A DNA stretch of 34,504 bases from a virus: the IMG/VR virus record IMGVR_UViG_3300027297_000001, positions 1 to 34,504 of that record, one strand, 5' to 3'. The translations under genes and the position numbers were made by a program. Each line of letters opens with the position of its first letter. Within the stretch, counting starts at the first letter, position 1. This document shows positions 5,072 through 33,190 of the stretch, one piece after another. A model generated the notes under the pieces. It was not told the DNA's origin and did not search any database. It worked only from the letters and a program-made list of their open reading frames with translations.

Positions 5072-5099
5072 CAGTTTTTTCCGTTCCTTGCCGGACTCA

Positions 5100-6029: not shown

Positions 6030-6832
6030 GCCGCCGCCATCCACAGCAAAGCGCCAAGCAAAATCACGCCGAAGATTTCCATTTCCTGCGTTGCGGCCGG
6101 AGTGGCCGCGGTCGATGGATTCAACAGCGTTGCGCCGCCCGGCCCCTGCGCGCCCGTATTCGCCGCCTGGACCAGTTGCCCGCCCACGGCCGTCAATCCC
6201 TGGCCGGCAATTTCCAAGCCGCTTGCCACCTGGCCGAGTCCGCGCACGCCGCGGCGCGCATAGCCGGCCATTCCCGCATCGCTCGAATAATCTCCGTGCG
6301 AATCGTCGATCAGGCTCCACCATTTGCGCCGATAGAAATGCGCCGGCGCCACTCCAAACACGGCGCCGGGCCGGGCCGCATCCAGCGGATACCACTGGCC
6401 ATCCTGAAAAACTTCGCAATAGACGTGGGAAAAAGAATCGGGCGCGTTCGGATCGCAGGCGATGGTGACGAGCCGCGTTTCGTAACCGATGGTGCCGAGC
6501 AAGGCGGGAAGGACGTTCGCATTGATATCGTCGCAGTCACCGGCATGCAACTGTAAAAGTTCCCGCGTGGGCCGCAGGGCTTCTTTCATCACCGGATCGT
6601 TCACGAAATAAAACGAATGCGCGAAATCGTAGATCGCGTGAATTTGTCCCCATGCATCGTACGGCGCGACGCCGGCGTTGCGGACGATATCGATCGCTGT
6701 GCGGTTGACGAACGGATCTTTCCAAGCATCGTCGACGAGGCGGCGCAAAAGTGAAATCGTTTGCGCCGTTCCATCGTCGCCGCCGGCAAGCGGGACGGAA
6801 TAAATCAGGCCAGGGGTCGCGTGGATTGCCAC
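6026..6832 (-). CDS. Transglutaminase-like cysteine protease domain protein with C-terminal TM anchor (268 aa)
   Basis: Cys-His-Asp core pattern of the transglutaminase-like superfamily: HAGDCDDINANVLPALLGTIGYETRLV ... FSHVYCEVFQDGQWYPLDAA. The C-terminal hydrophobic helix is MEIFGVILLGALLWMAAA. The start is GTG (6830-6832) and is the first gene after the divergent control region. Confidence 0.75.
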   Translation of the reverse strand: MAIHATPGLIYSVPLAGGDDGTAQTISLLRRLVDDAWKDPFVNRTAIDIVRNAGVAPYDAWGQIHAIYDFAHSFYFVNDPVMKEALRPTRELLQLHAGDCDDINANVLPALLGTIGYETRLVTIACDPNAPDSFSHVYCEVFQDGQWYPLDAARPGAVFGVAPAHFYRRKWWSLIDDSHGDYSSDAGMAGYARRGVRGLGQVASGLEIAGQGLTAVGGQLVQAANTGAQGPGGATLLNPSTAATPAATQEMEIFGVILLGALLWMAAA

Positions 6833-6992: not shown

Positions 6993-8279
6993 ATGGCGAC
7001 AACAACGCGAAAAGTGGTGACGACGGAATACGTCCCGCCGGACGAAGCCCGGCCATCGGCCCGATACAGCGGGGATTTTTGGGAAATTATCAACGGGATC
7101 AGCACCGACGAGTGGGCGGATCACCTGGTCCGCGTCTACTACGCCAACGATCGATGGGAAAGCGCCGGAAGCCCGCCAGGAAATAAACTCACGAGCAAAT
7201 TCGACGAGGAATATATCCGGGACACATGGGGCGGCGGGCGCTACCTTCTGATTCTCTACGGTCCGCCAGGCGGCAGCAAACGGGTAGGCCAAACTTTCCA
7301 CGTTGAAATCGTGGGCACTCCACCAAAGCAATTCATCAGTGGGGGAGGGAAGCCCGCCTCGGAAGCGGACAGCGCCGGATCACAAACCGTGGCGCTCGAG
7401 GCCATGCGCATGTACGCGAATCCCGAATTCGTGCGTATGCAGATGCAAATGATGGTGACGGCGGCAACCGAGGCGATGGCACTGATCAAGAGCCAAATGC
7501 CGGCGGCGCAAAATCCGCTCGAAACCCTGCGAGCCGCAAAGGAAATTCTCGGCAGCGGAAATCACGAAGGCGGTTTGCTGGATACGCTTCGCGTCCTGAA
7601 AGAATTGGGTCTGGTCGGTTCGCCGGAGAAAAAAGGGATCGACGAAATTTTAGGACTGATCACCACGCTAAAAACTTCCGGGCTGATCAACAGCGGGGCG
7701 CAGAAGGCTGACATCGCCGCCACGTTTGCGAACAATATCCCGTTACTTGCCGATCGTTTTGTCGCGGGGCTCGAGCAACTGCGGTTGAAATCCGAATCGG
7801 ACGAGAGAACGATCCGCCTGCAGCGCGGAGAAATTCGCCAAAACGATCTCAATGTGATTACGATGGACCAGCAAAGGCAGCCGCCCTCCACACCGGCGGC
7901 GGGCGCGCCAACGCCCGCCGCTCCCGCCCCAGCTGCCACGGTCACGCCGGAAGTCGCGCAGGCTATCATCGCGCAGGCCCACTTGCACCGGCTCGTCGCT
8001 GGGATCAAGCAACCGAATTCGACGGGGCAGGATATGTACGATTATTTGGTGAACGCCTGGCCGGAAATCCTGGACGAGCTCGCCAAGATGAGCAAGGAAA
8101 CGCTGCTCGGGTTTTTCAAATCTCGCGAGATGCAGCGCACTTATTTTCAGTGCGAAATCCTGGCCGAAGTGGGAGACGATCCGCGCCTGCCGAAAATGAT
8201 CGAGGATTTTTTGAGGATCGCCAAACAGAACGAAATCCCGCCAGCCGCGGCGGGGAGTGCGCCGCAAACCGCAATATGA
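6993..8279 (+). CDS. Hypothetical protein (428 aa), first gene of the plus arm
   Basis: ATG 6993, long ORF with a helical, Ala/Leu/Gln-rich middle and a Pro/Ala linker (PPSTPAAGAPTPAAPAPAAT). No family recognised. Confidence 0.7.
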   Translation: MATTTRKVVTTEYVPPDEARPSARYSGDFWEIINGISTDEWADHLVRVYYANDRWESAGSPPGNKLTSKFDEEYIRDTWGGGRYLLILYGPPGGSKRVGQTFHVEIVGTPPKQFISGGGKPASEADSAGSQTVALEAMRMYANPEFVRMQMQMMVTAATEAMALIKSQMPAAQNPLETLRAAKEILGSGNHEGGLLDTLRVLKELGLVGSPEKKGIDEILGLITTLKTSGLINSGAQKADIAATFANNIPLLADRFVAGLEQLRLKSESDERTIRLQRGEIRQNDLNVITMDQQRQPPSTPAAGAPTPAAPAPAATVTPEVAQAIIAQAHLHRLVAGIKQPNSTGQDMYDYLVNAWPEILDELAKMSKETLLGFFKSREMQRTYFQCEILAEVGDDPRLPKMIEDFLRIAKQNEIPPAAAGSAPQTAI

Positions 8280-8334
8280 TAGAGTTCCTTCCGAGTAAGG
8301 AACTGGGTTAGGCACACAGTACGCCTCCATCGAC

Positions 8335-8382
8335 ATGCCGGCGCCTTCGGTGGTTCGACCATCGCGCCGGCATTTCTCTTTT
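8335..8382 (+). terminator. Intrinsic-terminator-like hairpin after the 428-aa gene
   Basis: A 10-bp perfect stem atgccggcgc (8335-8344) / gcgccggcat (8364-8373) is followed by the T-rich run tttctctttt. Confidence 0.55.
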
Positions 8383-8417
8383 CCACACATCCACAGGTTT
8401 TCCACATCCCTCATCGC

Positions 8418-8447
8418 TTGACTTGCGTCTACGAAAAGCCTTAGTGT
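8418..8447 (+). promoter_or_regulatory. Sigma70-like promoter candidate upstream of the helicase gene
   Basis: TTGACT (8418-8423), 18-nt spacer, TAGTGT (8442-8447). Confidence 0.35.
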
Positions 8448-8534
8448 TCATCCCGCCGAAGCACTTTGTGGAGCGACGGAAGCTTTCTCCCTGCCAGGCG
8501 AAGTTTCCGTCACTCCCGGCTTTCGTGAAAAACA

Positions 8535-8575
8535 GGGGAGCGAAAGTCCCCGGCAAGGGGAGCTTTCGCGGTAAG
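8535..8575 (+). promoter_or_regulatory. Nested-hairpin RNA motif B, copy 1
   Basis: ggggaGCGAAAG-TCCCC-GGCAA-GGGGA-g-CTTTCGC-GGTAA. It lies in the 5' leader of the helicase gene, 26 nt before ATG 8601. Confidence 0.6.
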
Positions 8576-8600
8576 ACTCGATCGCCTGGCAGCCTGGCAA

Positions 8601-10058
8601 ATGACAAAACCTAATTCAGAAATTGCGCAGACGCTTCCCCATAACATCGAAGCGGAGCGCGCCATCCTCGGCGGCATTATGATCCACAATCCGGCTCTCG
8701 AAAGCGTGGCCGACAAACTTACGCCGGATGCTTTCTTCCACGTCAATCACAAAAAAATCTACGACGCCATCCTCGCCTTGCACGAAGACGAATTGCCGAT
8801 GGACGAAATTCATGTGATCGAATGGCTGTCCCAGGCCCGCACGCTCGAGATCGCGGGCGGCGCGGGATATATTTCCGCGCTGCTCGATGGCCGCCCCATC
8901 ATCAACAATCTTTCCAACTATGCGGACATCGTGGCCGGCAAAGCGCGCCTGCGAAAGCTGATCCGGGAAACGGAATTCGTCCAGAAGCGCGCCCTCGAGG
9001 GATGGGCCAATGTGGACGATCTGGAAACTCAGTTTCGCAGCGCGATTGAACTGACGGAACCAGGCGGAAACGGGAACGGCAACGGCCACAAGATCAGCTA
9101 CTCCACCACGGAGTTCCTGCAAAAAGACTGGCCCGAGCCGGAATATCTCGTCCAGGGTTTGCTTGCGCGTAATTCGCCTTCGATGATCGTGGCCATGCCG
9201 CACAGCCTGAAAAGTTTTTTCACCATCGGCCTTGCCTATTCGTGCTCCGTGGCCACGGAGAAAGCCCTCGGGCGATTGATGGTGCCAAAGGCGTTTCGGA
9301 CGATGCTCGTCCAGGTGGAAGAGTCCGGTGCGGAAATGAAAAAGCGGATCCGCGATTTCCTGGCCACGAAACAATTCCTGGATGTGGATCCCGACAATGT
9401 GCGGATCGTCCCACGCGAGGAATTTCCGCGCGAGGGCTTCACGGCAAAGTGGGCAAAGAAAGTGGTGACGGAAGCGCTGGAATTTAAGGCCGATCTGATC
9501 GTGTTCGATGTCTTGCGGCGCCTCTTCGTCGGCCACGGCGATATGAACGGCCCGCAGGACTCCGCTACCTTCCTCGAAATGATCGATGCCGTGCGCGACG
9601 TCACCGGAGCGAATACGCTGCTCGTCCATCACAAAAACAAGAAAGACGCCGAGATGATGTACTCCGCGGCCGGCAGCATCAATTTCTCGGGATGGGCCAA
9701 AACCTTCATCGAATTTAAAAATAAGAAAATCCTGCCGAACAACGTTTCCACGGTGGAAATCGAAACCGATACAGCCTACGGAGTTTCCGCCGACCCGATG
9801 CGCATGGTTCTCGATTTAACTTCCATCATGCCGTTGCGCCTTGAGGCGATCGAGGACGGCGACGATCTGGCCGAGGCCCTGCAACAGATGGACACGGAGT
9901 GGAACATCCGCACGCTGATGGAAGTGTTGGGCATTCCCCGCTCGAGCGCGCAGCGCCGCATCCGGGGATGGGAAAAAACCGGCGCGATCCATAAAGTATC
10001 CGGCGGCAAAAAAGGCCGCGGCGGTTTGGCGGTCTACACAAAAGGACTTGGCGAATGA
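8601..10058 (+). CDS. Replicative helicase-like protein: DnaB N-terminal domain + RecA/RepA-like P-loop domain + C-terminal HTH (485 aa)
   Basis: The N-terminus LPHNIEAERAILGGIMIHNPALESV...HKKIYDAILAL is the characteristic DnaB N-domain signature. The central part has Walker-B-like DLIVFDVLRRLF and a Walker-A position reading AMPHSLKS. The C-terminus is IRTLMEVLGIPRSSAQRRIRGWEKTGAIHKV. Confidence 0.8.
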   Translation: MTKPNSEIAQTLPHNIEAERAILGGIMIHNPALESVADKLTPDAFFHVNHKKIYDAILALHEDELPMDEIHVIEWLSQARTLEIAGGAGYISALLDGRPIINNLSNYADIVAGKARLRKLIRETEFVQKRALEGWANVDDLETQFRSAIELTEPGGNGNGNGHKISYSTTEFLQKDWPEPEYLVQGLLARNSPSMIVAMPHSLKSFFTIGLAYSCSVATEKALGRLMVPKAFRTMLVQVEESGAEMKKRIRDFLATKQFLDVDPDNVRIVPREEFPREGFTAKWAKKVVTEALEFKADLIVFDVLRRLFVGHGDMNGPQDSATFLEMIDAVRDVTGANTLLVHHKNKKDAEMMYSAAGSINFSGWAKTFIEFKNKKILPNNVSTVEIETDTAYGVSADPMRMVLDLTSIMPLRLEAIEDGDDLAEALQQMDTEWNIRTLMEVLGIPRSSAQRRIRGWEKTGAIHKVSGGKKGRGGLAVYTKGLGE

Positions 10059-10060
10059 CT

Positions 10061-10279
10061 CTAACTTTTACTCGCGGCCAACTCTCTCTTCAACATTTCT
10101 GCACGAAGTAGCTTTTTCGCGACATCGCGCAGTTCGTTCCCAAAAACTTTCTTCAATTGATCGCCATCGCTTGATGAAAAACTAATCCTTAAAACATAGT
10201 GGGTCTGACGGTAAACTTTGTCCGTTCCAGGATGGTTTGCTCGCCATCTTTGTTGGTAGATCGTCGCTGGTTTCACCAT
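10061..10279 (-). CDS. Small AT-rich-gene protein (72 aa), possible ribbon-helix-helix-type regulator
   Basis: ATG 10277-10279 behind SD GAGGAG with 7-nt spacing. This is the only minus-strand gene inside the plus arm and faces away from the iteron field. The segment VLRISFSSSDGDQLKKVFGNELRDVAKKLLRAEMLKRE is compatible with strand-helix-helix, but the functional call is weak. Confidence 0.5.
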   Translation of the reverse strand: MVKPATIYQQRWRANHPGTDKVYRQTHYVLRISFSSSDGDQLKKVFGNELRDVAKKLLRAEMLKRELAASKS

Positions 10280-10319
10280 CAATTTTCTCCTCTGTCGAAT
10301 ATATCACACGCTTAAAATT

Positions 10320-10639
10320 AAATGCCCACGGTGGGCATTTGGTATGTAACTTTTCTACCCATCGATTTTCTGTCTATTTCATCATTGCCCTGGAGAAAGG
10401 GGGCGAAAGCGGGCATTTGAGGCTTAAACCGAATACTCTCTATAGTTTCCAAATGCCCATTTAAATGCCCACTCCCTAGGGGGATATCGAACGATTCCTA
10501 ACCTAAAGCAAATGAACACAATAGCTTCCAAATGCCCACTCACCCCCTAAAAAGTGGGCATTTAATGGGCATTTAAATGGGCATTTAGGATGTCCTGTGT
10601 TTTGTACATACTAAGCCTGTTTTCGGGCCTAAATGCCCA
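10320..10639. repeat. Iteron field: 10 copies of AAATGCCCA/TGGGCATTT in both orientations (putative origin and/or operator array)
   Basis: Forward copies start at 10320, 10451, 10463, 10530 and 10631. Reverse copies are at 10332-10340, 10411-10418 (1 mismatch), 10555-10563, 10566-10574 and 10578-10586. Spacing inside the tandem sets is 12 nt. Palindromic pairs are at 10320-10340 and 10530-10563. The region is visibly AT-rich and non-coding. Confidence 0.8.
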
Positions 10640-10667
10640 TTTTCTCTCCCTCTCCCGGACCCCCTGA

Positions 10668-10700
10668 GTGACAAAATTTGTCACTGACAAAATTTGTCAC
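10668..10700. promoter_or_regulatory. Two tandem TGACA-N5-TGTCA palindromes (operator-like)
   Basis: gTGACAaaattTGTCAc at 10668-10684 is followed immediately by TGACAaaattTGTCAc at 10685-10700. Confidence 0.6.
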
Positions 10701-10780
10701 TTTTCGAATAGGCTCTGTGGAGAGCGCAGTTTACTTCCATTTTCTTTCTTTCTTTTTATCTCTCCACTCATACAATACTC

Positions 10781-10809
10781 TTGACAAAACTCATACATGT
10801 ATGATATTC
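10781..10809 (+). promoter_or_regulatory. Sigma70-like promoter candidate for the mini-gene operon, overlapped by a 12-nt palindrome
   Basis: TTGACA (10781-10786), 16-17 nt spacer, GATATT/ATATTC. The perfect palindrome CATACATGTATG (10792-10803) sits in the spacer. Confidence 0.45.
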
Positions 10810-10828
10810 TCTCTCCAGTGAATGAGTA

Positions 10829-11035
10829 ATGGCGACCGTAAACCAAATCGAAATTCAGCAATCAATCGAAGGCCGGAAGATCGCCACGCACTGCGGATGG
10901 TGCGCGAAAAAATTACCCCGATGGAATGGCAAGCGAGGCCAGCCGCGGAAGTTTTGCAAAGGCATGAATTGCCAGGTGTACGCCTGGCGCCGGGATCATC
11001 CCCGGAAGAAAATCGACACGGGAGACTTGATATGA
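10829..11035 (+). CDS. Zinc-ribbon mini-protein (68 aa)
   Basis: MATVNQ...HCGWCAKKLPRWNGKRGQPRKFCKGMNCQVYAWRRDH has CxxC...CxxxxC followed by a basic tail. It is preferred over the overlapping 161-aa frame, whose first half is Arg/Pro-rich. Confidence 0.6.
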   Translation: MATVNQIEIQQSIEGRKIATHCGWCAKKLPRWNGKRGQPRKFCKGMNCQVYAWRRDHPRKKIDTGDLI

Positions 11036-11307
11036 AAACCCTGCGAAACGCGATTCGTGATTCGTGGCCAGCCATCCGTGAAAAATCTTGGCGGCTATTT
11101 CTGCGCGCGTTGCGTGCGGTGACGCTGACCGTCGACGATTGGATTCAGCGGCAGGAAGTGGCCCTCCGCGAAAAATCGACTGTGGCGCAGTTTCAAGCCG
11201 AAGTCGATCCGGTCCAGAGCCGCAAGCGCGAAAAGGTTTCCCGGGCCACAAAGCCGCGCCGTCCGCGCCTGGTCTATCAGCACGGCGAATTTGTGGAAGT
11301 TCGCTAG
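11032..11307 (+). CDS. Hypothetical protein (91 aa)
   Basis: ATG 11032 forms an ATGA overlap with the stop of the zinc-ribbon gene. Sequence starts MKTLRNAIRDSWPAIREKSWRLFLRALRAV. Confidence 0.55.
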   Translation: MKTLRNAIRDSWPAIREKSWRLFLRALRAVTLTVDDWIQRQEVALREKSTVAQFQAEVDPVQSRKREKVSRATKPRRPRLVYQHGEFVEVR

Positions 11308-11321
11308 AGTAAATCTAAAAA

Positions 11322-11355
11322 GGGGAGCGCACATAGAGTGCGCGGTGAATAAAAA
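11322..11355 (+). promoter_or_regulatory. Hairpin motif A, copy 1 (SD-like tract + GCGCAC-AUAGA-GUGCGC + A-rich spacer + AUG)
   Basis: GGGGA-GCGCAC(11327-11332)-ATAGA-GTGCGC(11338-11343)-GGTGAATAAAAA-ATG(11356). Confidence 0.6.
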
Positions 11356-11637
11356 ATGAAAGCGACGATGGAGAGCACGAACAAGCTGGTGATCATCAAC
11401 GGGATAAACTTTCGCGTCTGGCAAGGCGTGTCCGAACAGGGAACGAAATTCGTGGCGCTCGTGAACCGTCTGGCCGCGGGGACTCCCGACGATCAGACGA
11501 AAATCGTTGCGGAGCTCGCGAAGCAACAGGATCACGCCCCGATCGATCCCGCGCTGGCACCTGCGCTCAAAACGCTCGATCCGTCGATCGATCCGGGAAT
11601 CGTAGAGCCGCCGGCAAAAGAAACGCCTGCCGCGTAG
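11356..11637 (+). CDS. Hypothetical protein (93 aa)
   Basis: ATG 11356 after hairpin A. Normal composition with a Pro/Asp-rich C-terminus. Confidence 0.6.
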   Translation: MKATMESTNKLVIINGINFRVWQGVSEQGTKFVALVNRLAAGTPDDQTKIVAELAKQQDHAPIDPALAPALKTLDPSIDPGIVEPPAKETPAA

Positions 11638-11680
11638 GGAGAGAGCGAAAGTCCCCGATGAGGGGAGTGTCCGCGGTGAA
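11637..11680 (+). promoter_or_regulatory. Nested-hairpin RNA motif B, copy 2 (outer stem degenerate)
   Basis: gggagagaGCGAAAG-TCCCC-GATGA-GGGGA-gtgtCCGC-GGTGA. It ends 2 nt before ATG 11682. Confidence 0.5.
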
Positions 11681-11681
11681 C

Positions 11682-11894
11682 ATGACGGATGAAGGCCGGC
11701 AAATTCTATATCGCATGAAAGTGCGCTGCTCTGAACAATGGGGGATCGCGCTGGCGGATATGGAACTGGAAAACATTTCGGCCAGTACACCCCTCGGGGC
11801 GATTGCCTGGCACGACGCGATTTTGATTTGCCATCTACTTCGGAGAGGGTTTCAGGCCCCGGAGAAATATCGAAAGCGAGGGTTTCCTAAATGA
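11682..11894 (+). CDS. Hypothetical protein (70 aa)
   Basis: MTDEGRQILYRMKVRCSEQWGIALADMELENI... The start at 11682 is chosen because the ATG at 11658 lies in the loop of motif B. Confidence 0.5.
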   Translation: MTDEGRQILYRMKVRCSEQWGIALADMELENISASTPLGAIAWHDAILICHLLRRGFQAPEKYRKRGFPK

Positions 11895-12322
11895 TGAACA
11901 TTCGAAAACTGCAATGGACGCTTCCTCCGTTCCTTTATTTCTTCTGCCTGATCGTCATGATCACGGCGGGATTGAAAGTTTATCGGCTGGATCGGCAAAT
12001 CGACGCGATCCGGGCGACTTACGATAAGCAGCTGGGCGATCTGCAAACCACGATCAACGAACAAACGAAAGAAATTTCGAACTGCCGCAAAACGGTGATC
12101 GGGGACGGAACTGCGACGATCTTGATGGACGTGAACCATCCCTACGGCAAATTCGTTTCCCCGGCCGCCCAGCTGCCGGCGGGATACATTCCCGGGCCGG
12201 TGTGGATCGTGCCCCGCCGGATCGTGCCGCGCACGATGGACGGCACGCTGAACGGCGCGTACGCGTACCTGCATTCAGACGGAACGATGGAGCCGTGGCG
12301 CACGGCGGGAGAATCGAAGTGA
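11891..12322 (+). CDS. N-terminally anchored membrane protein (143 aa)
   Basis: ATGA overlap at 11891-11894. TM segment LPPFLYFFCLIVMITAGL is followed by a coiled segment. Confidence 0.65.
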   Translation: MMNIRKLQWTLPPFLYFFCLIVMITAGLKVYRLDRQIDAIRATYDKQLGDLQTTINEQTKEISNCRKTVIGDGTATILMDVNHPYGKFVSPAAQLPAGYIPGPVWIVPRRIVPRTMDGTLNGAYAYLHSDGTMEPWRTAGESK

Positions 12323-12726
12323 ACGAAAAGCCTGGACATTTCCTGATTGACACTTCGGAGCCGGCCTGGATTCGCGATGCCAGCGCCGCCGTCGTGGATA
12401 TTGACTCGTCGCAGCCGGAGAAAATCCCGCAGATGATCGCGGAAATCTGCGCCGGCGAGTTTTCCTATTGCGAGCATTGCGGCTTTTCCGCGCCCTTCTG
12501 GCCCACGAAGCAATGGGCCGATCACATCTTGACCGAGCACGCCGTGAATCTGACGATCCAGGCGCGCACCGGAACGAGCCAACTGTGCGACGAAGGGATC
12601 AACCAGGCGCAGCAACTATTTTTTAGCATGATGTTTGGCGCGCGCGTTTCCATGCGCCGCCGCGCCTGGAAGCTGGGTTATACGGTAATCAAATCCGTGC
12701 CCGGCTGGAATCCGCGTTCAAACTAA
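12319..12726 (+). CDS. Hypothetical protein (135 aa), Cys/His-containing
   Basis: The GTG start forms a GTGA overlap (12319-12322). Contains FSYCEHCGFSAPFWPTKQWADHILTEH. Confidence 0.55.
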   Translation: MNEKPGHFLIDTSEPAWIRDASAAVVDIDSSQPEKIPQMIAEICAGEFSYCEHCGFSAPFWPTKQWADHILTEHAVNLTIQARTGTSQLCDEGINQAQQLFFSMMFGARVSMRRRAWKLGYTVIKSVPGWNPRSN

Positions 12727-12736
12727 GTGTGTTCTT

Positions 12737-12850
12737 ATGAACTTGCGCCGGATGATTTTCGCGTCGCTGTGGCTCGTCCCCGTTGCGGCGCTGCTCGTGT
12801 ACAGATTTACGATCCGCCCGATCCTGAACTGGATTCAAGGGATGCTCTGA
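12737..12850 (+). CDS. Possible 37-aa single-TM mini-protein
   Basis: MNLRRMIFASLWLVPVAALLVYRFTIRPILNWIQGML is a clean TM helix. Its stop overlaps the next ATG (TGATG). It competes with the GTG-started 78-aa ORF 12727..12963. Confidence 0.35.
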   Translation: MNLRRMIFASLWLVPVAALLVYRFTIRPILNWIQGML

Positions 12851-12963
12851 TGAACTTTTCCGATGCGTTGCGCGAAATGGTTTCCTACGGTGCGGTCCAT
12901 CCCCTGCGTTTCGCGGCGCTGATGTTTTGGTGCGAATATCTCTTTCGCGGGTGCACGTCATGA
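12850..12963 (+). CDS. Possible 37-aa mini-protein
   Basis: MNFSDALREMVSYGAVHPLRFAALMFWCEYLFRGCTS is the ATG-started part of track ORF 12727..12963. Confidence 0.35.
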   Translation: MNFSDALREMVSYGAVHPLRFAALMFWCEYLFRGCTS

Positions 12964-13109
12964 ACAAAGACCAAGAGGAATTCAACAAGACGCGGGAAAA
13001 GCTGTTCAAGCTGGCGGACAAGATGGGCCTGCGGTTGACGTTGACGGTGAAAAACAAATTCCAGGCCGCGCCGCAGCCGCATGCGAAACGGGAGCCGGGA
13101 GAAAACTGA
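12960..13109 (+). CDS. Possible 49-aa basic mini-protein
   Basis: ATGA overlap at 12960-12963. Sequence is MNKDQEEFNKTREKLFKLADKMGLRLTLTVKNKFQAAPQPHAKREPGEN. Confidence 0.45.
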   Translation: MNKDQEEFNKTREKLFKLADKMGLRLTLTVKNKFQAAPQPHAKREPGEN

Positions 13110-13873
13110 TGCCGATCATCGAAGAACGCTGGAAAGAAATTCAAAATCTGTCGTTGAAATTCGGCGGTCATAAACCGGATTCTCAATTTTGCGTGATGGA
13201 AGCCGCCGCCTACATCGCAGGTGAATCGTGGTCCGATCACCCTGTATGCGTGCCTCGGACCATCGCCGCGGTGTTGCGGCGATGGAATGACGCGCTTCCC
13301 TCGGATCGAGATCGTGATCGTCTATTGAAGCCGTTTCTTCCGCGCATTATTGGCTTACACGCTGACGCGAAAACGGAAATGCGCCGTGCGGTGATGTGCG
13401 GCGATTTCGCGCTTCGTTTCGTGATACCGGAATATTTGCGTTACGCCAAGAAAAAGGGACTTGCGGAAGAACTGGCCGCGACTTCGGAATCGACTACGCA
13501 AGCTGAACTTAAAATTGCAGCAAAATCAGTTCGAAATAAATTGCGCGCCATCGCCAGCGCCATCGACATCGCCAGCGCCAGCGACATCGCCATCGACATC
13601 GCCAGCGCCAGCGCCATCGCCATCGACATCGACATCGCCAGCGCCAGCGACATCGCCATCGCCATCGCCATCGCCAGCGCCATCGACATCGCCAGCGCCA
13701 GCGACATCGCCATCGCCAGCGCCATCGCCAGCGCCATCGCCAGCGCCATCGACATCGCCATCGCCAGCGCCAGCGCCATCGCCATCGCCAGCGCCAGCGC
13801 CATCGCCATTAATCAGAAACTAGAAGTAGCGAAATTGGCGCTCGTAGAGCGCATGATTTCGTGTGCGGAGTGA
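13109..13873 (+). CDS. Protein with a Cys-containing N-terminal domain and an 88-aa (Ala/Asp)-(Ile/Ser) dipeptide-repeat region (254 aa)
   Basis: TGATG overlap at 13107-13111. The N-terminal domain reads FCVMEAAAYIAGESWSDHPVCVPRTIAAVLRRWNDALPSDRDRDRLLKPFLPRIIG. The repeat is AIASAIDIASASDIAIDI... The frame continues into a unique C-terminus NQKLEVAKLALVERMISCAE. Confidence 0.7.
   Translation: MPIIEERWKEIQNLSLKFGGHKPDSQFCVMEAAAYIAGESWSDHPVCVPRTIAAVLRRWNDALPSDRDRDRLLKPFLPRIIGLHADAKTEMRRAVMCGDFALRFVIPEYLRYAKKKGLAEELAATSESTTQAELKIAAKSVRNKLRAIASAIDIASASDIAIDIASASAIAIDIDIASASDIAIAIAIASAIDIASASDIAIASAIASAIASAIDIAIASASAIAIASASAIAINQKLEVAKLALVERMISCAE
13547..13810 (+). repeat. 44 tandem hexanucleotide units built from only three unit types (GCCATC, GCCAGC, GACATC)
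   Basis: Read directly: 264 nt of strict 6-nt periodicity. All six frames are open across it, which explains track ORFs 13441..13809 (-) and 13461..13823 (+). Confidence 0.9.
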
Positions 13874-16100
13874 ATTTGTGATTTTACTCGGATGGGAAAT
13901 CGGAACGGGAAAGCGCGTGGAAATCCCGGACACCGGGCATCTGGCGTGGTTTGGCCAGACGCAGCTATCCGGGAAAACTACGGCGCTCGAGGCCATCGCC
14001 TATCGTGGGGAACTGACGGCCGTCGCGTTCATCACGAAACAGGGCGAGGGGGGATTCCTCACCGGGCGGATGATCCCCCCTTATTTCTCCGAACCGACGA
14101 ACGACGAAGAGCAACCGCTCTGGCGATGGGTGAAATCCATCCTCGAGGCTTCGCAACAGCGCAAAATGAATTTCGAGGAATCCTGGATCATCCGCGCCTG
14201 CGAGGATCCGCGCCTCGCGCAAACCCTGGCCGACGTGCATTCCAACATCAAGGCTTTGCTGGGCGGCGAGGGCGGCTACATCGAAAAAGGCCGCGGCAAG
14301 AAAAAGAAGCGCGAATGGAAATATTCCCGCAAACCAGTGTCCGGGATGAATGCCGGCATTTACACCAGCTTGAAAGCGTACTTCGATATCGTGATGCCCC
14401 AGCTGGCCCGCCTGCCTTACACCAAGAGACTGAAACTTTTCCCCGGCCTGAACGTGATGGACCTGCGCGAATACGCCACGGAGACGCAGGCGCTCGTGAT
14501 CCGTTCGGTGATGGAGTGGGTGTATCAGCACGAAAAGAACGTGCGCGTGATCGTCCCCGAATCGCAGGACTTCGTGCCGCAGGGAAAAAACTCCCCGGTA
14601 AAGATGGCCTGCGAGAACCTGGTGCGCAAGGCCGGGGCCAATAAAAATTTCATGTGGCTGGATTCGCAGGATATGGCCGCGGTGGACAAGATCATGCTGC
14701 GAGCCTGCTCGATCGTGGGCTGCGGCGTGCAAACCGAGGGGCACGAAATTGACCGCACGCTCGCGAGCATGTTTTCGCCCCAGCTAAAACCGATTGACAT
14801 TGCCCGGCTGCGCATCGGCGAATTCTTCGTGCGCACGCCGGAAGCGCGCGTTTCGAAAGTGTACGTGCAACCGGCCTGGATGGATAGCGAGCTCCACGCG
14901 CAGGCCATCGCCCGCGGCGAGGAAACCGTCGCCAGCGCGCGGCAGATGTTGCGTGCGTTTAAAGATTCAAGGAAACCCGGTCCGTCGTCCCCCCAACTGT
15001 TGCAAATTCAGGAGGAATCCGATGCCGAATGTGAGCGAAGTGCAGACGTTGAATCAGGGGCCGAAATATCAAAGTCAAGCGCGGAGGTTTCAAAGGATGA
15101 TCGAACTTCCAAGCGTCTACACCACGTCGACTCAGACGATGATTCTGGAACTGAAATTCGCCCCGAAGTTGACGATGGAAATCGAATTCACGAAGGGCGA
15201 AGCGTTCGAACTTCTGCGAGCGATCGCGGATGTGCCCCGAACGATGGAAATAATGAGGAAAACGACGGTTTACCACGGAAACAAGAAGCCCAAAAAACAA
15301 AAAATCTAAACGAGGAGACGATTCATGAAAAGCCTGGCAGGCAGGAAAGTCAAACCGCATGTGATGTTCAATCCGGTGCCGTTCGCGGATCAAGTGCTGG
15401 CGCGGAAGGATTGGACGATCGCGAAAAAGAGGGAAGTGATTCTATTCCAGGTGTTCGGGATCTCTCCCCGGAAAGTGAGGACGCAATGCCGGAAACCGCA
15501 GCCCAAAAAGTAGAGCGGCAACTGGACGATAACGTAATTCCCACGTTGGGCACGCTGCGCGAGCTTTTGAAAGATCACGCGGCGCTGATTGAAGCCCACG
15601 ACGCGCTGGCCGCGCGCGCGAGCGAACGGATGGTCACGGCATTGACCGAAGGTTACGAGGGAAACCTATCCCGATCAGCCGAAGCCATGACAAAACATCG
15701 GGAAAGCCAGTCCGCGCCGTCCGGCAACGGCCTTTCGCTCACCGTCCCGCAGTTGGACTACATCTACAAATACACCGTGGCGAAGGCGGCGAAGGCTCCC
15801 GGCATTCTGGAATTGCTCACCACGAAACCGGAACTGCGCGTGACCGTGCAACGGCAAACGGTGGAAATGGACGATTCCACGATCGTCGGACGGATCGCGC
15901 GGCTTCTCCACGAAGGATATTTCAAGAGTCCCAAAAACGTGCCCGCGCTGCAAAAGGAATTAAAGCGCCGCGGCTGCGATCAGCCCACCACGAACATTTA
16001 TAAGCCGATCAACAAACTGGCCGAGATGGGTTTTCTGACCGTGGAGGCCGAAGGCTACCAGGAAGTCCCGGAAATGAAAGTGTCCATTGTGAAAGCGTGA
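13863..16100 (+). CDS. HerA/FtsK-like P-loop NTPase + long acidic low-complexity linker + C-terminal winged helix (745 aa); candidate genome-packaging/translocating ATPase
   Basis: Walker A is HLAWFGQTQLSGKTTALEAI. Walker-B-like is NVRVIVPESQDFVP. FMWLDSQDMAAVDKIMLRACSIVGCGVQTEGHEIDRTL resembles the HerA/FtsK sensor region. The linker is acidic and Ser-rich, roughly residues 380-570. The C-terminus is GRIARLLHEGYFKSPKNVPALQKELKRRG...INKLAEMGFLTVEAEGY. The start is GTG (13863 or 13878). Confidence 0.65.
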   Translation: MRSEFVILLGWEIGTGKRVEIPDTGHLAWFGQTQLSGKTTALEAIAYRGELTAVAFITKQGEGGFLTGRMIPPYFSEPTNDEEQPLWRWVKSILEASQQRKMNFEESWIIRACEDPRLAQTLADVHSNIKALLGGEGGYIEKGRGKKKKREWKYSRKPVSGMNAGIYTSLKAYFDIVMPQLARLPYTKRLKLFPGLNVMDLREYATETQALVIRSVMEWVYQHEKNVRVIVPESQDFVPQGKNSPVKMACENLVRKAGANKNFMWLDSQDMAAVDKIMLRACSIVGCGVQTEGHEIDRTLASMFSPQLKPIDIARLRIGEFFVRTPEARVSKVYVQPAWMDSELHAQAIARGEETVASARQMLRAFKDSRKPGPSSPQLLQIQEESDAECERSADVESGAEISKSSAEVSKDDRTSKRLHHVDSDDDSGTEIRPEVDDGNRIHEGRSVRTSASDRGCAPNDGNNEENDGLPRKQEAQKTKNLNEETIHEKPGRQESQTACDVQSGAVRGSSAGAEGLDDREKEGSDSIPGVRDLSPESEDAMPETAAQKVERQLDDNVIPTLGTLRELLKDHAALIEAHDALAARASERMVTALTEGYEGNLSRSAEAMTKHRESQSAPSGNGLSLTVPQLDYIYKYTVAKAAKAPGILELLTTKPELRVTVQRQTVEMDDSTIVGRIARLLHEGYFKSPKNVPALQKELKRRGCDQPTTNIYKPINKLAEMGFLTVEAEGYQEVPEMKVSIVKA

Positions 16101-16291
16101 AAGTCAGCGAATATCTGCGGCGGTATCAGCTTGCCGGCGAGCCGCCCGATAATGGCGGCGACGCGATGCTGGACTTTTGGGGCGGCTGGCTGTGCGGCGT
16201 GTGTTATCGCGGCACGATCTGCGATTTAAATCAGGCCCGCGAAATGGCCGTCAAGGTCGCGGAATTCATCGAGGCGCATGCCCGTGAGTGA
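16097..16291 (+). CDS. Hypothetical protein (64 aa)
   Basis: GTGA overlap with the ATPase stop. Sequence starts MKVSEYLRRYQLAGEPPDNGGDAMLDFWGGWLCGVCYRGTICD. Confidence 0.5.
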   Translation: MKVSEYLRRYQLAGEPPDNGGDAMLDFWGGWLCGVCYRGTICDLNQAREMAVKVAEFIEAHARE

Positions 16292-16472
16292 GCATTTTCC
16301 AAAATCGACGATCAGCGCGACGGGCTGGTGCCGGAAGTGCAACCGCAACACCGAACACCAGGTGGACGACGGCCGTCTCGGGCGCTGCCTGGACCCGGAG
16401 CATCCCGCGCCCTCGTCGCGCGCGGCAGATGCGCCGAAGCCGGCCGAACAGAAAGGCTTGTTCGAAAAATGA
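16278..16472 (+). CDS. Hypothetical CxxC mini-protein (64 aa)
   Basis: ATG 16278. Sequence ...ATGWCRKCNRNTEHQVDDGRLGRCLDPEH... Confidence 0.5.
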   Translation: MPVSEHFPKSTISATGWCRKCNRNTEHQVDDGRLGRCLDPEHPAPSSRAADAPKPAEQKGLFEK

Positions 16473-16813
16473 GCAAGAAAACCCGCAGCGGAGCGAAGGG
16501 CGGACGGAAAGTAGGGAAGAGAAGCAGGGCCAAACTGGCTTCTCATTCTGAGCTGGGGCCGTCCGTCCCTCCCTCCGCTGCGCATTCGCAAGACGGGTAT
16601 ACCGTTGACGCGGCCGAAGCGATTATTACGGCACTCACGCTCGAGCGCCAAAAGCTGCTTTATGCCTTGCGCGGGACGCTTCATTTCTATGATCGTGTGG
16701 CTGGCAACGTAAAAACCGATCATGGCTGGATGGCGAAAGATGTTCTCTACTTGAAAGAAATCCGCATGTTGGCATGGGGTCGCGAAGAGGGAGAAAGCAA
16801 AAGTCCCCGGTAA
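16469..16813 (+). CDS. Hypothetical basic-N-terminus protein (114 aa)
   Basis: ATGA overlap at 16469-16472. Sequence starts MSKKTRSGAKGGRKVGKRSRAKL. Its TAA stop (16811-16813) is the loop of motif B copy 3. Confidence 0.55.
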   Translation: MSKKTRSGAKGGRKVGKRSRAKLASHSELGPSVPPSAAHSQDGYTVDAAEAIITALTLERQKLLYALRGTLHFYDRVAGNVKTDHGWMAKDVLYLKEIRMLAWGREEGESKSPR

Positions 16814-16826
16814 GGGGAGCTTTTGC
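16788..16826 (+). promoter_or_regulatory. Nested-hairpin RNA motif B, copy 3
   Basis: agggagaaaGCAAAAG(16797-16803)-TCCCC-GGTAA-GGGGA-g-CTTTTGC(16820-16826). The outer-stem change G:C->A:T is compensatory. Confidence 0.6.
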
Positions 16827-16827
16827 G

Positions 16828-17205
16828 ATGAAAATGCTCCTGGAATGCATTTTGATCAGCGCGTCCCTTTGCCGCGCCATCCATTCGCGGCCGATCGTGG
16901 CCCTCGGGGCGGGCCAGGCCGTCGCGCTTCTGGCCGATGGCGATCTGACGCGCCGAAATATCAAACAGGGCGGGATGGAAGTGGATCCGCTGGCGCGCGT
17001 TTTCATCGGCGCGCATCCCACCTGGCCGCGCATGGTTCCGATGGGCATTGTCCAGACGGCCGCGGGGATGTGGCTTGCGCAAAAAATGAAATCCAGCCGG
17101 CATGCGTGGCTGCGGCGCTGGTGGTGGCTGCCCCAAACCGCGGGGATCGCCGGAAACGCGCAGGGATTTATTTACAGCTACGTCCACTGGAAGCGAGGTT
17201 TCTAA
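16828..17205 (+). CDS. Small integral membrane protein (125 aa)
   Basis: MKMLLECILISASLCRAI... has further hydrophobic segments and a Trp-rich tail. The alternative in-frame ATG at 16834 fits the 'motif B + 2 nt + ATG' spacing seen at two other copies. Confidence 0.6.
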   Translation: MKMLLECILISASLCRAIHSRPIVALGAGQAVALLADGDLTRRNIKQGGMEVDPLARVFIGAHPTWPRMVPMGIVQTAAGMWLAQKMKSSRHAWLRRWWWLPQTAGIAGNAQGFIYSYVHWKRGF

Positions 17206-17212
17206 AAACACC

Positions 17213-17422: not shown

Positions 17423-17469
17423 CCAGCCCTGCGATTTCTAGGGGGGTAGGACGCACGATCGGAGAGGGA

Positions 17470-21309: not shown

Positions 21310-21615
21310 CTACCACGGGTTTTTCCTCGGGGCGCTGCATTCCAGTTGATCGGCTAGTTCGTCGAACTTGCCGAGGGCCTTCGTCAATTCCTCGAAATTC
21401 TCGGCGCTGATTTCTATTTCCTTGCCGAGCGTGATCCCGTTCTCCCGGAAGGCGCCGGGATAAAACAAGGCGGGCTTCGCCTGCATTTCCGCCGCCTTGC
21501 TGATGGCGCTGGCCATCGCCATCATCGGATCGCGCCCGGGATCTGGCGCGGGAACCGGAATCGGATCAGGCAGGCGCGAGGCTTGGATCGTGATTTTCAA
21601 CTGGTAGTTTGCCAT
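21310..21615 (-). CDS. Hypothetical protein (101 aa)
   Basis: ATG 21613-21615 directly after hairpin A copy 2. Sequence starts MANYQLKITIQASRLPDPIPVPAPDPGRDP. Confidence 0.6.
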   Translation of the reverse strand: MANYQLKITIQASRLPDPIPVPAPDPGRDPMMAMASAISKAAEMQAKPALFYPGAFRENGITLGKEIEISAENFEELTKALGKFDELADQLECSAPRKNPW

Positions 21616-21650
21616 CGTTTTATTTGCGCACTCTATGTGCGCTATCTCCC
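21616..21650 (-). promoter_or_regulatory. Hairpin motif A, copy 2
   Basis: In gene sense: AGAGGGAGATA-GCGCAC-ATAGA-GTGCGC-AAATAAAACG-ATG. The hairpin is at 21626-21642. Confidence 0.6.
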
Positions 21651-21653
21651 TCT

Positions 21654-32647: not shown

Positions 32648-32648
32648 G

Positions 32649-33152: not shown

Positions 33153-33190
33153 TTTATTTCGCGCACTCCATGTGCGCAATTCCTTTCCTC
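33153..33190 (-). promoter_or_regulatory. Hairpin motif A, copy 3
   Basis: In gene sense: GAGGAAAGGAATT-GCGCAC-ATGGA-GTGCGC-GAAATAAA-ATG. The hairpin is at 33161-33177. Confidence 0.6.

What the first reader, a model, noticed from the sequence alone, without database searches (positions are those of the whole stretch)
11322..11355. Three-copy hairpin inserted between an SD-like purine tract and the AUG (split ribosome-binding site or late-gene signal)
The gene-sense alignment is as follows. Copy 1 is GGGGA-GCGCAC-AUAGA-GUGCGC-GGUGAAUAAAAA-AUG (11356). Copy 2 is GAGGGAGAUA-GCGCAC-AUAGA-GUGCGC-AAAUAAAACG-AUG (21615, minus). Copy 3 is GAGGAAAGGAAUU-GCGCAC-AUGGA-GUGCGC-GAAAUAAA-AUG (33152, minus). 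The stem, the asymmetric loop and the AAUAAA spacer are all conserved and always oriented with the gene. In copies 2 and 3 the only SD-like sequence lies upstream of the hairpin, about 30 nt from the AUG. It would come into normal range only if the hairpin folds, the arrangement described for phage T4 gene 38. Alternatively GCGCAC-N5-GTGCGC is a DNA site for a dimeric activator.
Basis: partly seen in the sequence, partly recalled or inferred. Interest (0 to 1): 0.65.

Follow-up and report, generated by a model that had tools for sequence, protein, structure and literature searches.

The report
Conserved start-codon hairpin in soil phages
A 17-base hairpin that hardly ever changes sits next to the ribosome-binding site, just upstream of the start codon, of a shifting set of genes in a little-known family of ~35-kb soil phages; it most likely acts in the mRNA to set or regulate translation, but this has not been tested.

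Summary
GCGCAC-AT(A/G)GA-GTGCGC occurs three times in the window, always in gene sense, 8-12 nt upstream of an ATG (0.47 expected by chance).

The window is a complete circular ~34.4-kb phage genome, probably from an Acidobacteriota host. In about 250 kb from 13 related genomes the motif is by far the most recurrent short hairpin (20 sites in 11 genomes). It precedes about 11 phage gene families. Only loop position 3 varies freely. Two independent double substitutions keep the stem paired.

The cassette is an exchangeable module. In other genomes the same genes carry a plain strong Shine-Dalgarno (SD) sequence or a terminator in that slot. The three gene families with no SD in the spacer all have a strong SD immediately 5' of the hairpin. 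Folding shortens SD-AUG spacing from 26-29 to 9-12 nt, similar to T4 gene 25. One soil RNA contig reads through copy 2.

Other copies have the SD 3' of the hairpin. The near-invariant sequence also exceeds what folding needs, so a sequence-specific reader is inferred.

Verdict: an RNA element of the translation-initiation region. The split-RBS idea is partly supported. "Late-gene signal" and "dimeric activator site" are not supported. A promoter or operator role is not excluded.

The parts
11322..11326 (+). Copy 1: SD-like tract GGGGA, directly 5' of the hairpin
   Evidence: dG -8.4 kcal/mol against the anti-SD CACCUCCUUUCU, 0 nt from the hairpin; sequence
11327..11343 (+). Copy 1 hairpin GCGCAC-ATAGA-GTGCGC
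   Evidence: Identical in the near-identical genome (L001/L021) and in L014, in front of the orthologous MKAT gene
11344..11358 (+). Copy 1: 12-nt spacer GGTGAATAAAAA plus the ATG of the 93-aa gene 11356-11637
   Evidence: GGUGA in the spacer is a moderate SD (-5.8). An in-frame TAA 6 nt upstream rules out an earlier start
21646..21652 (-). Copy 2: SD tract GAGGGAG, 3 nt 5' of the hairpin (the duplex-based measure gives 2)
   Evidence: dG -9.4; the spacer has no SD (+1.8); sequence
21626..21642 (-). Copy 2 hairpin GCGCAC-ATAGA-GTGCGC
   Evidence: Soil metatranscriptome contig X23 (181 nt, 100% identical) covers 21580-21760, so it reads through the hairpin
21613..21625 (-). Copy 2: 10-nt spacer AAATAAAACG plus the ATG (21615) of the 101-aa gene 21310-21615
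33181..33190 (-). Copy 3: SD tract GAGGAAAGGA, 3 nt 5' of the hairpin (the duplex-based measure gives 2)
   Evidence: dG -10.3; spacer -1.6. Orthologous sites keep an SD-like tract with different sequence (GAAAGGCGGA, AGAAAGGA)
33161..33177 (-). Copy 3 hairpin GCGCAC-ATGGA-GTGCGC
   Evidence: Present in front of the orthologous MINPW gene in L004, L009, L016, L039 and L087. Replaced by a plain RBS or a terminator in L015, L018, L020, L248/L257, L008/L017 and L019
33150..33160 (-). Copy 3: 8-nt spacer GAAATAAA plus the ATG (33152) of the 167-aa gene 32649-33152
   Evidence: The in-frame TTG at 33179 is unique to this genome

Best explanation
The element is a portable cassette of the translation-initiation region that works as RNA inside polycistronic phage mRNAs. 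It consists of a 17-nt hairpin (6-bp G+C-rich stem, A-U-R-G-A loop) directly next to the SD sequence and 7-15 nt upstream of the AUG.

In the arrangement found in this window the SD lies 5' of the hairpin. Folding takes the 17 nt out of the path and brings the SD from 27-29 nt to 10-12 nt from the AUG, a split ribosome-binding site as in T4 gene 25.

The stem and loop sequences are conserved far more than folding requires. The hairpin also occurs with the SD on its 3' side. So it is most likely also the binding site of a sequence-specific trans-acting factor, probably an RNA-binding protein of the phage or host, that sits on the ribosome-binding site and tunes translation of a changing set of genes. 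That would make it a multi-gene translational operator.

Shown: sequence and orientation conservation, start-codon association, compensatory stem changes, adjacency to the SD, interchangeability with ordinary RBS modules, and transcription through copy 2. Inferred: the bridging function, the existence and nature of the trans-acting factor, and the direction of regulation.
For: (1) Specificity. There are three exact copies against 0.47 expected. In 250 kb from 13 related genomes GCGCAC-N5-GTGCGC is the most recurrent 6-bp hairpin: 20 sites in 11 genomes, with loops only ATAGA or ATGGA in gene sense.
(2) Start association. In about 11 phage gene families the hairpin ends 7-15 nt from the start codon, while its distance to the upstream stop codon varies from 0 to about 40 nt. 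It is always in gene sense.
(3) Structure. 99.3% of cells are paired. Two of six pairs show double-sided changes and none shows a one-sided change. ACGCAC..GTGCGT is stably inherited in front of the MRK gene in 4 contigs, and GCGCAT..ATGCGC occurs in L010/L036. Within one genome the variant and canonical stems coexist, which fits hairpin selection better than a co-evolving dimeric DNA binder.
(4) SD adjacency. Every instance has an SD of -5 kcal/mol or stronger next to the hairpin on one side. The three families with no spacer SD (MANYQ, MINPW, MSSQ/MSTQ) all have a strong 5'-adjacent SD (-6.0 to -11.1; background 13-25%). Its sequence differs between orthologous sites. Folded spacing is 9-12 nt, against 1-12 nt for ordinary genes.
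(5) Natural swaps. Window copy 3 versus the 99%-identical L015. L009 versus an RNA contig in which 47 nt (SD, hairpin, spacer) are replaced by 8 nt, leaving GGGGAAGGGAA-tcgac-ATG. For six genes, hairpin-less orthologues have a strong SD at 3-7 nt or a terminator in that slot.
(6) RNA. All 15 perfectly matching X23 metatranscriptome contigs lie on one arm (P about 6e-4 under uniform DNA contamination). One of them spans copy 2 from 118 nt upstream to 46 nt downstream.
(7) Precedent. In T4 genes 38 and 25 a hairpin between SD and AUG reduces spacing from 22 to 5 nt and from 27 to 11 nt and enhances initiation (PMC3014915).
Against: - Base-by-base invariance of a Watson-Crick stem is more typical of DNA recognition than RNA recognition.
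- Only one low-depth RNA contig, of unknown strand, crosses a hairpin. No transcript 5' ends are available.
- In at least 5 families the SD lies 3' of the hairpin, so bridging is not the common function.
- Two family copies lie 24-40 nt from the start (L049, L020-353).
- In some relatives a terminator-like hairpin lies directly upstream (L055/L134, L012). That would suit a promoter.
- Folded spacing (9-12 nt) is at the long end of the normal range.
- No candidate binding protein was found: almost all proteins lack Pfam, PHROG or PDB matches.
- The same 17-mer occurs antisense in an acidobacterial 16S trailer, which is either chance or a hint of a DNA-level reader.
Confidence: 0.48

Rival explanations
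1. A purely cis-acting split ribosome-binding site. The hairpin only serves to bring a distant SD within range of the AUG, and no trans-acting factor is involved.
For: The geometry and SD statistics fit copies 2 and 3 and the MINPW and MSSQ/MSTQ families: 26-29 nt becomes 9-12 nt, with a strong 5'-adjacent SD and no spacer SD. Plain-SD orthologues exist. T4 genes 25 and 38 are a precedent.
Against: A structural spacer would drift by covariation. Here 16 of 17 positions are fixed across about 11 gene families and 11 or more genomes, while loop position 3 toggles repeatedly, even between orthologous sites. So there has been time to mutate. In at least 5 families the SD is 3' of the hairpin and bridging is pointless.
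Confidence: 0.15
2. A DNA-level signal. It could be a promoter read by a phage-specific or modified RNA polymerase, possibly as an extruded hairpin like phage N4 early promoters (from memory), giving short-leader mRNAs. Or it could be an operator or roadblock for a repressor, like the 17-bp conserved inverted repeats of phiC31 or the oriented stoperators of mycobacteriophage L5 (both from memory).
For: Every stem base is invariant, and the site is a 17-bp dyad. A purine follows the hairpin in most copies. Some relatives have a terminator-like hairpin just upstream (L055/L134 tcccggcgggagatttttta; L012). The spacing loosely resembles sigma-54 -24/-12 elements, which would place a start near the ATG. 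The identical 17-mer occurs in either orientation in presumed host DNA.
Against: SD sequences immediately 5' of the hairpin would be left out of such transcripts, yet they are enriched and maintained. SDs that abut the 3' side would sit at or before the transcript start. Hairpin-less variants of the same genes are transcribed through the junction. An RNA contig reads through copy 2. No RNA polymerase, sigma factor or repressor was detected, and the largest ORF is 1012 aa with no match. The GG doublet of sigma-54 promoters is absent. The conserved asymmetric loop and compensatory stem changes do not fit a symmetric dimer site.
Confidence: 0.2
3. An RNA element that is not translational. It could be an antitermination site like lambda boxB/nut, a cleavage site for a sequence-specific endoribonuclease, or a hairpin that stabilises processed mRNA ends.
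For: A short G+C-rich stem with a 5-nt purine-rich loop resembles boxB in size (from memory). Copy 1 lies at the first intercistronic junction after a sigma-70-like promoter at 10781-10810, much as nutR follows cro. Intrinsic terminators are common in these genomes and occupy the same slots. An A-rich single strand beside a hairpin is a typical RNase E context.
Against: None of these roles explains the tight 7-15 nt distance to the start codon or the constant adjacency to an SD. No boxA-like sequence is evident upstream, and the loop is not GNRA-like. Up to 3 copies within 3.3 kb (L009) is unusual for nut sites. No RNA ends map at the motif, though the data are very sparse.
Confidence: 0.12

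Closest known systems
Split translation-initiation regions of phage T4 genes 38 and 25 (hairpin between SD and AUG)
   Same: The SD is too far from the AUG in linear sequence (26-29 nt here; 22 and 27 nt in T4). A stable hairpin lies entirely between them. Folded spacing falls within the functional range (9-12 nt here; 5 and 11 nt in T4).
   Different: The T4 cases are single-gene structures with no shared sequence. Here one near-invariant 17-mer is reused in front of about 11 phage gene families, is exchanged as a module, and also occurs with the SD on its 3' side.
Start-associated sequences (SAS/ESAS) of Cluster K mycobacteriophages
   Same: Both are short repeats found almost only a few nucleotides upstream of start codons, in one orientation, in front of genes of different families. 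Presence or absence varies between related phages. Function is unknown, with a role in translation proposed (PMC3203893; PMC12699233).
   Different: SAS is a 13-nt asymmetric sequence that contains the SD itself (GGGATAGGAGCCC). ESAS inverted repeats do not support RNA pairing. Here the core is a perfect hairpin with compensatory changes, separate from the SD, with far fewer copies per genome (1-4, against 11-19).
Hairpin translational operators of phages (T4 gp43 operator, MS2/PP7 coat-protein operators) and the T4 RegA multi-gene repressor
   Same: A short hairpin with conserved loop and upper-stem bases lies next to or within the ribosome-binding site. It is read sequence-specifically by a protein that blocks initiation (gp43; the others from memory). 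RegA controls many genes.
   Different: The known hairpin operators control one gene each. RegA targets are not hairpins. No binding protein has been identified here, so this is an analogy of mechanism and not membership.
Lambda-type boxB (nut) antitermination hairpins
   Same: Similar size, a G+C-rich 5-6-bp stem, a 5-nt purine-rich loop, strand-specific, and few copies per genome (from memory).
   Different: No boxA is evident, the loop is not GNRA-like, and the element is tightly linked to start codons and SD sequences. nut sites do not need that.
Oriented or palindromic repressor sites in intergenic regions (L5 stoperators; phiC31 17-bp conserved inverted repeats)
   Same: Highly conserved short sites lie in short intergenic gaps, and stoperators are oriented with transcription (mentions stoperators; the rest is from memory).
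   Different: Those act on DNA in temperate phages that have an identified repressor. No repressor or integrase was detected here. The stem changes are compensatory, and the SD pattern points to mRNA.

Membership tests
Split RBS of the T4 gene 25/38 type | The SD lies beyond functional linear distance from the AUG, and no SD lies in the normal window | tested here: met
   Copies 2 and 3: the SD duplex ends 27-29 nt from the AUG, and spacer dG is +1.8 and -1.6. Copy 1: 29 nt, but a moderate GGUGA (-5.8) lies in the spacer.
Split RBS of the T4 gene 25/38 type | A stable hairpin lies wholly between SD and AUG, and folding brings the spacing into the functional range | tested here: met
   The hairpin folds at -9.3 kcal/mol and is the minimum-free-energy structure in context for copies 1 and 2. 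Folded spacing is 10-12 nt in the window and 9-12 nt in relatives. Ordinary genes here have 1-12 nt, and T4 gene 25 has 11 nt.
Split RBS of the T4 gene 25/38 type | The element is part of the mRNA | tested here: inconclusive
   One RNA contig (depth 3, strand unknown) spans copy 2. No contig covers copies 1 or 3. No 5'-end data are available.
Split RBS of the T4 gene 25/38 type | Stem disruption lowers translation and compensatory changes restore it | not testable with these tools
   This needs reporter assays or toeprinting. Natural compensatory variants exist, but their expression is unknown.
Cluster K start-associated sequences (SAS) | 13-nt consensus GGGATAGGAGCCC, 3-7 nt upstream of start codons | tested here: not met
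   The sequence is unrelated. Only the positional logic is shared.
Intrinsic (Rho-independent) terminator | A G+C-rich hairpin followed directly by a U-tract on the transcribed strand | tested here: not met
   In gene sense the hairpin is followed by G plus an A-rich spacer. Only the antisense of copy 1 was flagged weakly (TCCCCTTTTT). Real terminators in these genomes look different: CCCC-GGTAAG-GGGG plus GCTTTTGCG.
Lambda boxB/nut site | boxA (CGCTCTTA-like) a few nt upstream, and a GNRA-like pentaloop (GAAAA or GAAGA) | tested here: not met
   By inspection, the upstream 30 nt of all instances show purine-rich SD-like tracts and no boxA. The loop is AURGA.
Sigma-54 (-24/-12) promoter | Invariant GG at -24 and GC at -12 (TGGCAC-N5-TTGC) | tested here: not met
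   The motif has GCGCAC-N5-GTGC. The spacing and GC are present, but the GG doublet is absent in all copies. The consensus is from memory.
N4-type hairpin promoter | A 5-7-bp stem with a 3-nt loop, and a giant virion RNA polymerase in the genome | tested here: not met
   The loop is 5 nt. The largest ORF is 1012 aa with no Pfam, PHROG or PDB match, and no RNA polymerase domain was found. The promoter features are from memory.
CsrA/RsmA binding hairpin | An invariant GGA in the loop (ANGGA) | tested here: not met
   AUGGA fits, but 11 of 25 distinct instances have AUAGA and one has AUCGA. The consensus is from memory.
Symmetric operator for a dimeric DNA-binding protein | Function independent of orientation, a centre free to vary or symmetric, and half-sites that vary independently | tested here: not met
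   All phage copies are in gene sense. The asymmetric centre A-T-R-G-A is conserved. Stem changes are paired: 2 double-sided and 0 one-sided.

The most novel reading that the evidence does not exclude
The hairpin is the operator of a dedicated post-transcriptional regulon that has not been described. A sequence-specific RNA-binding factor, from the phage or its acidobacterial host, would read one invariant 17-nt hairpin placed against the SD of whichever genes a given phage puts under its control. The operator cassette would be traded between phage genomes, and perhaps host genes such as a Ser/Thr kinase, as a plug-in alternative to an ordinary ribosome-binding site.
Probability: 0.3. Interest if true: 0.75.

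Novelty: new variant of a known kind. Interest (0 to 1): 0.52.

Why it matters
If the hairpin is a translational operator or enhancer, it would be the first case of one invariant RNA hairpin reused as a movable module in front of many different genes across a phage family. It would combine the T4 split-RBS trick with regulon-style control. It would also give a concrete handle on gene regulation in phages of Acidobacteriota, abundant soil bacteria whose phages are almost unstudied. As a practical point, the motif marks true start codons in genomes where nearly every protein is an orphan. The natural variants with and without the hairpin amount to a ready-made experimental design.

Tried and rejected
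- **Known RNA families and tRNAs:** Rfam gave no match in the window, and no tRNA was found.
- **Deposited phages:** megablast of 12 kb found nothing.
- **Single-protein locus searches:** the helicase and the 1012-aa protein returned only the near-identical genome or nothing.
- **'MRSDRTRS' class:** I first counted it as a gene family with no SD. It is a copy antisense in the trailer of an Acidobacteriota 16S rRNA gene, so I removed it.
- **Upstream in-frame start in copy 3** (TTG 33179, at ideal spacing from GAGG): rejected as a general explanation, because other orthologues have in-frame stops or no alternative start.
- **Mini-ORF starting at the loop AUG:** rejected, because about half the copies have AUA.
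- **Other candidate families:** intrinsic terminator, boxB, sigma-54 promoter, N4 promoter and CsrA site each fail a defining feature (see the membership tests).
- **Late-promoter reading:** rejected. The copies lie on both arms and in front of diverse genes, and junctions of hairpin-less variants are transcribed through.
- **Search for a reader protein:** Pfam, PHROGs and PDB sequence searches of about 40 ORFs gave only a DnaB-like helicase, two DNA methyltransferases, an endolysin and a transglutaminase-like domain.
- **More RNA evidence:** laying five further soil metatranscriptomes on the window and on L055 gave no more contigs across hairpins.
- **Loose search for the stem variant** (14 specified bases): mostly chance hits, with two new true sites.

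Full report
**Observation.** The three copies exist exactly as described: 11327-11343 (+), 21626-21642 (-) and 33161-33177 (-). Each reads GCGCAC-AT(A/G)GA-GTGCGC, lies in gene sense and ends 12, 10 and 8 nt upstream of an ATG. GCGCAC-N5-GTGCGC with up to one mismatch is expected 0.47 times in the window, and no shuffle out of 100 reached three hits. Allowing three mismatches adds only one unrelated hit inside a coding region. The 17-mer folds at -9.3 kcal/mol. In its native context it is the minimum-free-energy structure for copies 1 and 2, leaving the purine tract and the AUG single-stranded. For copy 3 the minimum-free-energy fold of the 84-nt context was a different structure, no better than shuffles.

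**Genome context.** The first 99 bases of the window repeat at its end, so this is a complete circular assembly of about 34,405 bp. It has a minus-strand arm (6832 through 1 and 34504 to about 20850) and a plus-strand arm (6993 to about 20300). Only a DnaB-like helicase, two DNA methyltransferases, an endolysin and a transglutaminase-like domain are recognisable. No terminase, portal or capsid protein was detected. There is no match among deposited phages, no Rfam family and no tRNA. Ordinary genes use AAGGA/GAGGGA-type SD sequences 1-12 nt from the start.

Soil metatranscriptomes hold this phage. All 15 perfectly matching contigs of run X23 lie on the minus arm (P about 6e-4 if they were contaminating DNA). 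The highest depth runs from 1085 across the junction to 33780. Copy 1 therefore sits in the poorly expressed replication arm, about 520 nt downstream of a sigma-70-like promoter (10781-10810) that follows an iteron-rich non-coding region. Copies 2 and 3 sit in the expressed arm.

**Relatives.** The exact 17-mer occurs in about ten viral contigs of 34-37 kb and in many soil metagenome contigs that share proteins with the window. In 250 kb from 13 such genomes it is by far the most recurrent 6-bp hairpin: 20 sites in 11 genomes, with only ATAGA or ATGGA loops in gene sense. The next most frequent stem has 10 sites with mixed loops.

The motif precedes about 11 phage gene families. These include the endolysin (hairpin in eight relatives, plain GAGGGAG SD in the window), small membrane-type proteins and proteins with signal peptides. 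It is always in gene sense. It ends 7-15 nt from the start codon, whereas its distance from the upstream stop codon ranges from 0 to about 40 nt. Two family copies lie 24-40 nt from the start, with a normal SD in between.

**Conservation pattern.** Among 25 distinct instances, 99.3% of stem cells pair. Four pairs never vary. Two pairs show changes on both sides and none shows a one-sided change. The G1-C17 to A-U variant is stably inherited in front of one gene in four contigs. The C6-G12 to U-A variant occurs in another.

Loop position 3 toggles between A and G repeatedly, even between orthologous sites. There has therefore been ample time for mutation, and the other 16 positions are under strong purifying selection. 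This has two consequences. Pairing matters, because changes are compensatory and canonical and variant stems coexist within one genome. Sequence matters beyond pairing, which implies a sequence-specific reader.

**Relation to the SD.** I used the 3' end of an Acidobacteriota 16S rRNA (CACCUCCUUUCU, from L141) as the anti-SD. Every instance then has an SD of -5 kcal/mol or stronger directly beside the hairpin, on the 5' side, the 3' side or both.

The three gene families with no SD in the spacer (window copy 2, the copy-3 gene and its orthologues, and the MSSQ/MSTQ gene) all have a strong SD 0-3 nt 5' of the hairpin (-6.0 to -11.1). Such tracts occur in 13-25% of control windows. Their sequences differ between orthologous sites, so the SD character itself is maintained. 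Removing the hairpin from the path shortens SD-AUG spacing from 26-29 nt to 9-12 nt. That is within, but at the long end of, the range for ordinary genes here, and close to T4 gene 25 (27 to 11 nt; PMC3014915). In at least five other families a good SD (GGGAGA, GGGGGA, CGGAGG, GUGAGGGA) abuts the 3' side of the hairpin, so bridging cannot be the universal role.

**Natural experiments.**
- A genome 99% identical in the flanking genes (L015) has a completely different junction in place of copy 3, without a hairpin and with AAAGGA near the ATG.
- An RNA contig from run X29 is a variant of L009 in which the 47 nt comprising SD tract, hairpin and spacer are replaced by 8 nt. This leaves GGGGAAGGGAA-tcgac-ATG, and the RNA runs through the junction.
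- For six genes, the slot in front of the start codon holds either a plain strong SD at 3-7 nt, an intrinsic terminator, or the hairpin cassette, depending on the genome.

The cassette is therefore a dispensable, exchangeable module that stands where a ribosome-binding site stands.

**Transcription.** One X23 contig (181 nt, 100% identical, depth 3) covers 21580-21760. It reads from 118 nt upstream of hairpin 2 to 46 nt beyond it. This is the only direct evidence that the hairpin is inside an RNA. It is thin: one contig of unknown strand. No contig covers copies 1 or 3, and further runs added nothing.

**Mechanism.** The best-supported reading is an RNA element of the translation-initiation region. 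It is a hairpin pressed against the SD that, in the window's arrangement, also bridges a split ribosome-binding site. Its invariant sequence is probably the binding site of a trans-acting factor that tunes translation of a variable set of genes. I give this about 0.48.

- A purely structural split RBS (0.15) fails to explain the sequence invariance and the copies with a 3' SD.
- A DNA-level promoter or operator (0.20) would explain the invariant stem and the terminators found just upstream in some relatives. It does not explain the maintained 5'-adjacent SDs, the transcription of hairpin-less junctions, the read-through contig or the compensatory changes. No polymerase, sigma factor or repressor was found.
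- Antitermination, processing or stability roles (0.12) do not explain the tie to start codons and SDs.
- A 'late-gene signal' is not supported, and a symmetric dimeric activator site is unlikely.

**Copies outside the phages.** The only hit in 185,579 species genomes lies 130 nt downstream of a 16S rRNA gene of an Acidobacteriota MAG. It is antisense to the rRNA and next to a bidirectional terminator. The number of hits equals the chance expectation. This locus accounts for five metagenome hits that I had first read as a gene family.

A bacterial Ser/Thr kinase gene carries the motif 7-8 nt upstream of its ATG in two related contigs. By a rough estimate, this too is within chance given the number of unrelated hits. 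The phage's terminator modules have the same style as the terminator in the MAG (CCCC-GGTAAG-GGGG followed by GCTTTTGCG). Together with the soil origin and G+C content, this points to an Acidobacteriota host, weakly.

**Comparison with known systems.** The element works like the T4 gene 25/38 split initiation regions in part of its copies. In position, orientation and patchy distribution it resembles the start-associated sequences of Cluster K mycobacteriophages, whose function is still unknown (PMC3203893; PMC12699233). It differs from both because it is a true hairpin with an invariant sequence, separate from the SD and movable between genes. It fails the defining features of terminators, boxB sites, sigma-54 and N4 promoters, CsrA sites and symmetric operators. 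I rate it a new variant of a known kind, of moderate interest, with function unproven.

Noticed in passing
window 1-99 and 34406-34504: The first 99 bases are identical to the last 99, so the window is a complete circular (or terminally redundant) genome assembly of about 34,405 bp. RNA contigs join the end to the start. The minus-strand ORFs 3-338 and 33940-34473 appear to be one gene of about 253 aa across the junction (frame not verified).
   Followed up: yes
window 10058-10822: A 760-bp non-coding, low-G+C stretch holds about a dozen copies of the iteron AAATGCCCA(C/T) in both orientations and two tandem 16-bp palindromes TGACAAAATTTGTCAC (10669-10700). It ends in a good sigma-70-like promoter (TTGACA-18-TG-TATTCT, 10781-10810) only a few nt from ATG 10822. 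It is probably a replication origin or operator region. Similar GCCCAC iterons occur in L012 and L014.
   Followed up: partly
window about 31877-31915 (-) and about 16800-16827 (+); L017/L019 upstream of the MINPW gene; L141 3960-4000: A second recurrent intergenic module: an intrinsic-terminator hairpin (CCCC-GGTAAG-GGGG type) followed by GCTTT(C/T)GCG(GTAAAA) and then directly the ATG, with no SD in between. In some relatives it fills the same slot as the GCGCAC hairpin. The same terminator style follows the 16S gene of an Acidobacteriota MAG. Short pieces of many unrelated soil RNA contigs match 31879-31915.
   Followed up: partly
window 1-6832 and 20850-34504 (minus arm) versus 6993-20300 (plus arm): Soil metatranscriptome contigs cover only the minus-strand arm. 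Depth is about 5-fold higher from 1085 across the junction to 33780 (genes of 193 and about 253 aa, likely major virion proteins). Contigs from two runs end at 33780-33787. The replication arm is essentially silent.
   Followed up: partly
whole window: The phage genome has almost no recognisable genes. There is no terminase, portal, capsid or tail hit in Pfam or PHROGs. Only a DnaB-like helicase (8601-10058), two DNA methyltransferases (17665-20273), an endolysin (23176-23655) and a transglutaminase-like domain (6026-6832) were found. The virion type is unknown.
   Followed up: partly
L141 3907-3923 (-); also L035, L062, L099, L101, L135: The identical 17-mer lies 130 nt downstream of a complete 16S rRNA gene (2239-3775 +) of an Acidobacteriota MAG, antisense to the rRNA and 30 nt from a bidirectional terminator. 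The 16S gene seems not to be followed by a 23S gene. It could be chance or a shared DNA-level site; this is unresolved.
   Followed up: partly
L110 172-188 (+), L029 250-266 (-): A bacterial Ser/Thr protein kinase gene (928 aa, MIGQTIGNYRIV...GGGGMGVVY) carries the hairpin 7-8 nt upstream of its ATG in two related contigs, with the same A/G toggle in the loop. It may mean the motif is also used by host genes, but it is within chance expectation.
   Followed up: partly
window 33191-33216 (-); L009 and L039 upstream of the MINPW hairpin: Direct repeats of (A/G)TTCGTGA (gattcgtg-gttcgtga-...-atccgtga) lie just upstream of the copy-3 cassette and of its orthologues. Their function is unknown.
   Followed up: no
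L012, upstream of the MKAT orthologue; loose ends of RNA contigs in X30 and X31: A tandem heptamer (C/T)AGTCAC is repeated 4-5 times in front of a gene that carries the hairpin in other genomes. The same repeat appears in loose ends of soil RNA contigs.
   Followed up: no
window 31856-31932: An X23 RNA contig replaces these 77 nt (the terminator module in front of ATG 31876) with an unrelated 29-nt sequence. This is another example of intergenic cassette swapping between co-occurring strains.
   Followed up: no
window 21654-21746 (-): The ORF that ends just upstream of copy 2 is only about 30 codons long (MTTREYESAKCLICHGSGIVISIDKLADDS) and has a CxxC motif. It is unclear whether it is a real gene.
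   Followed up: no
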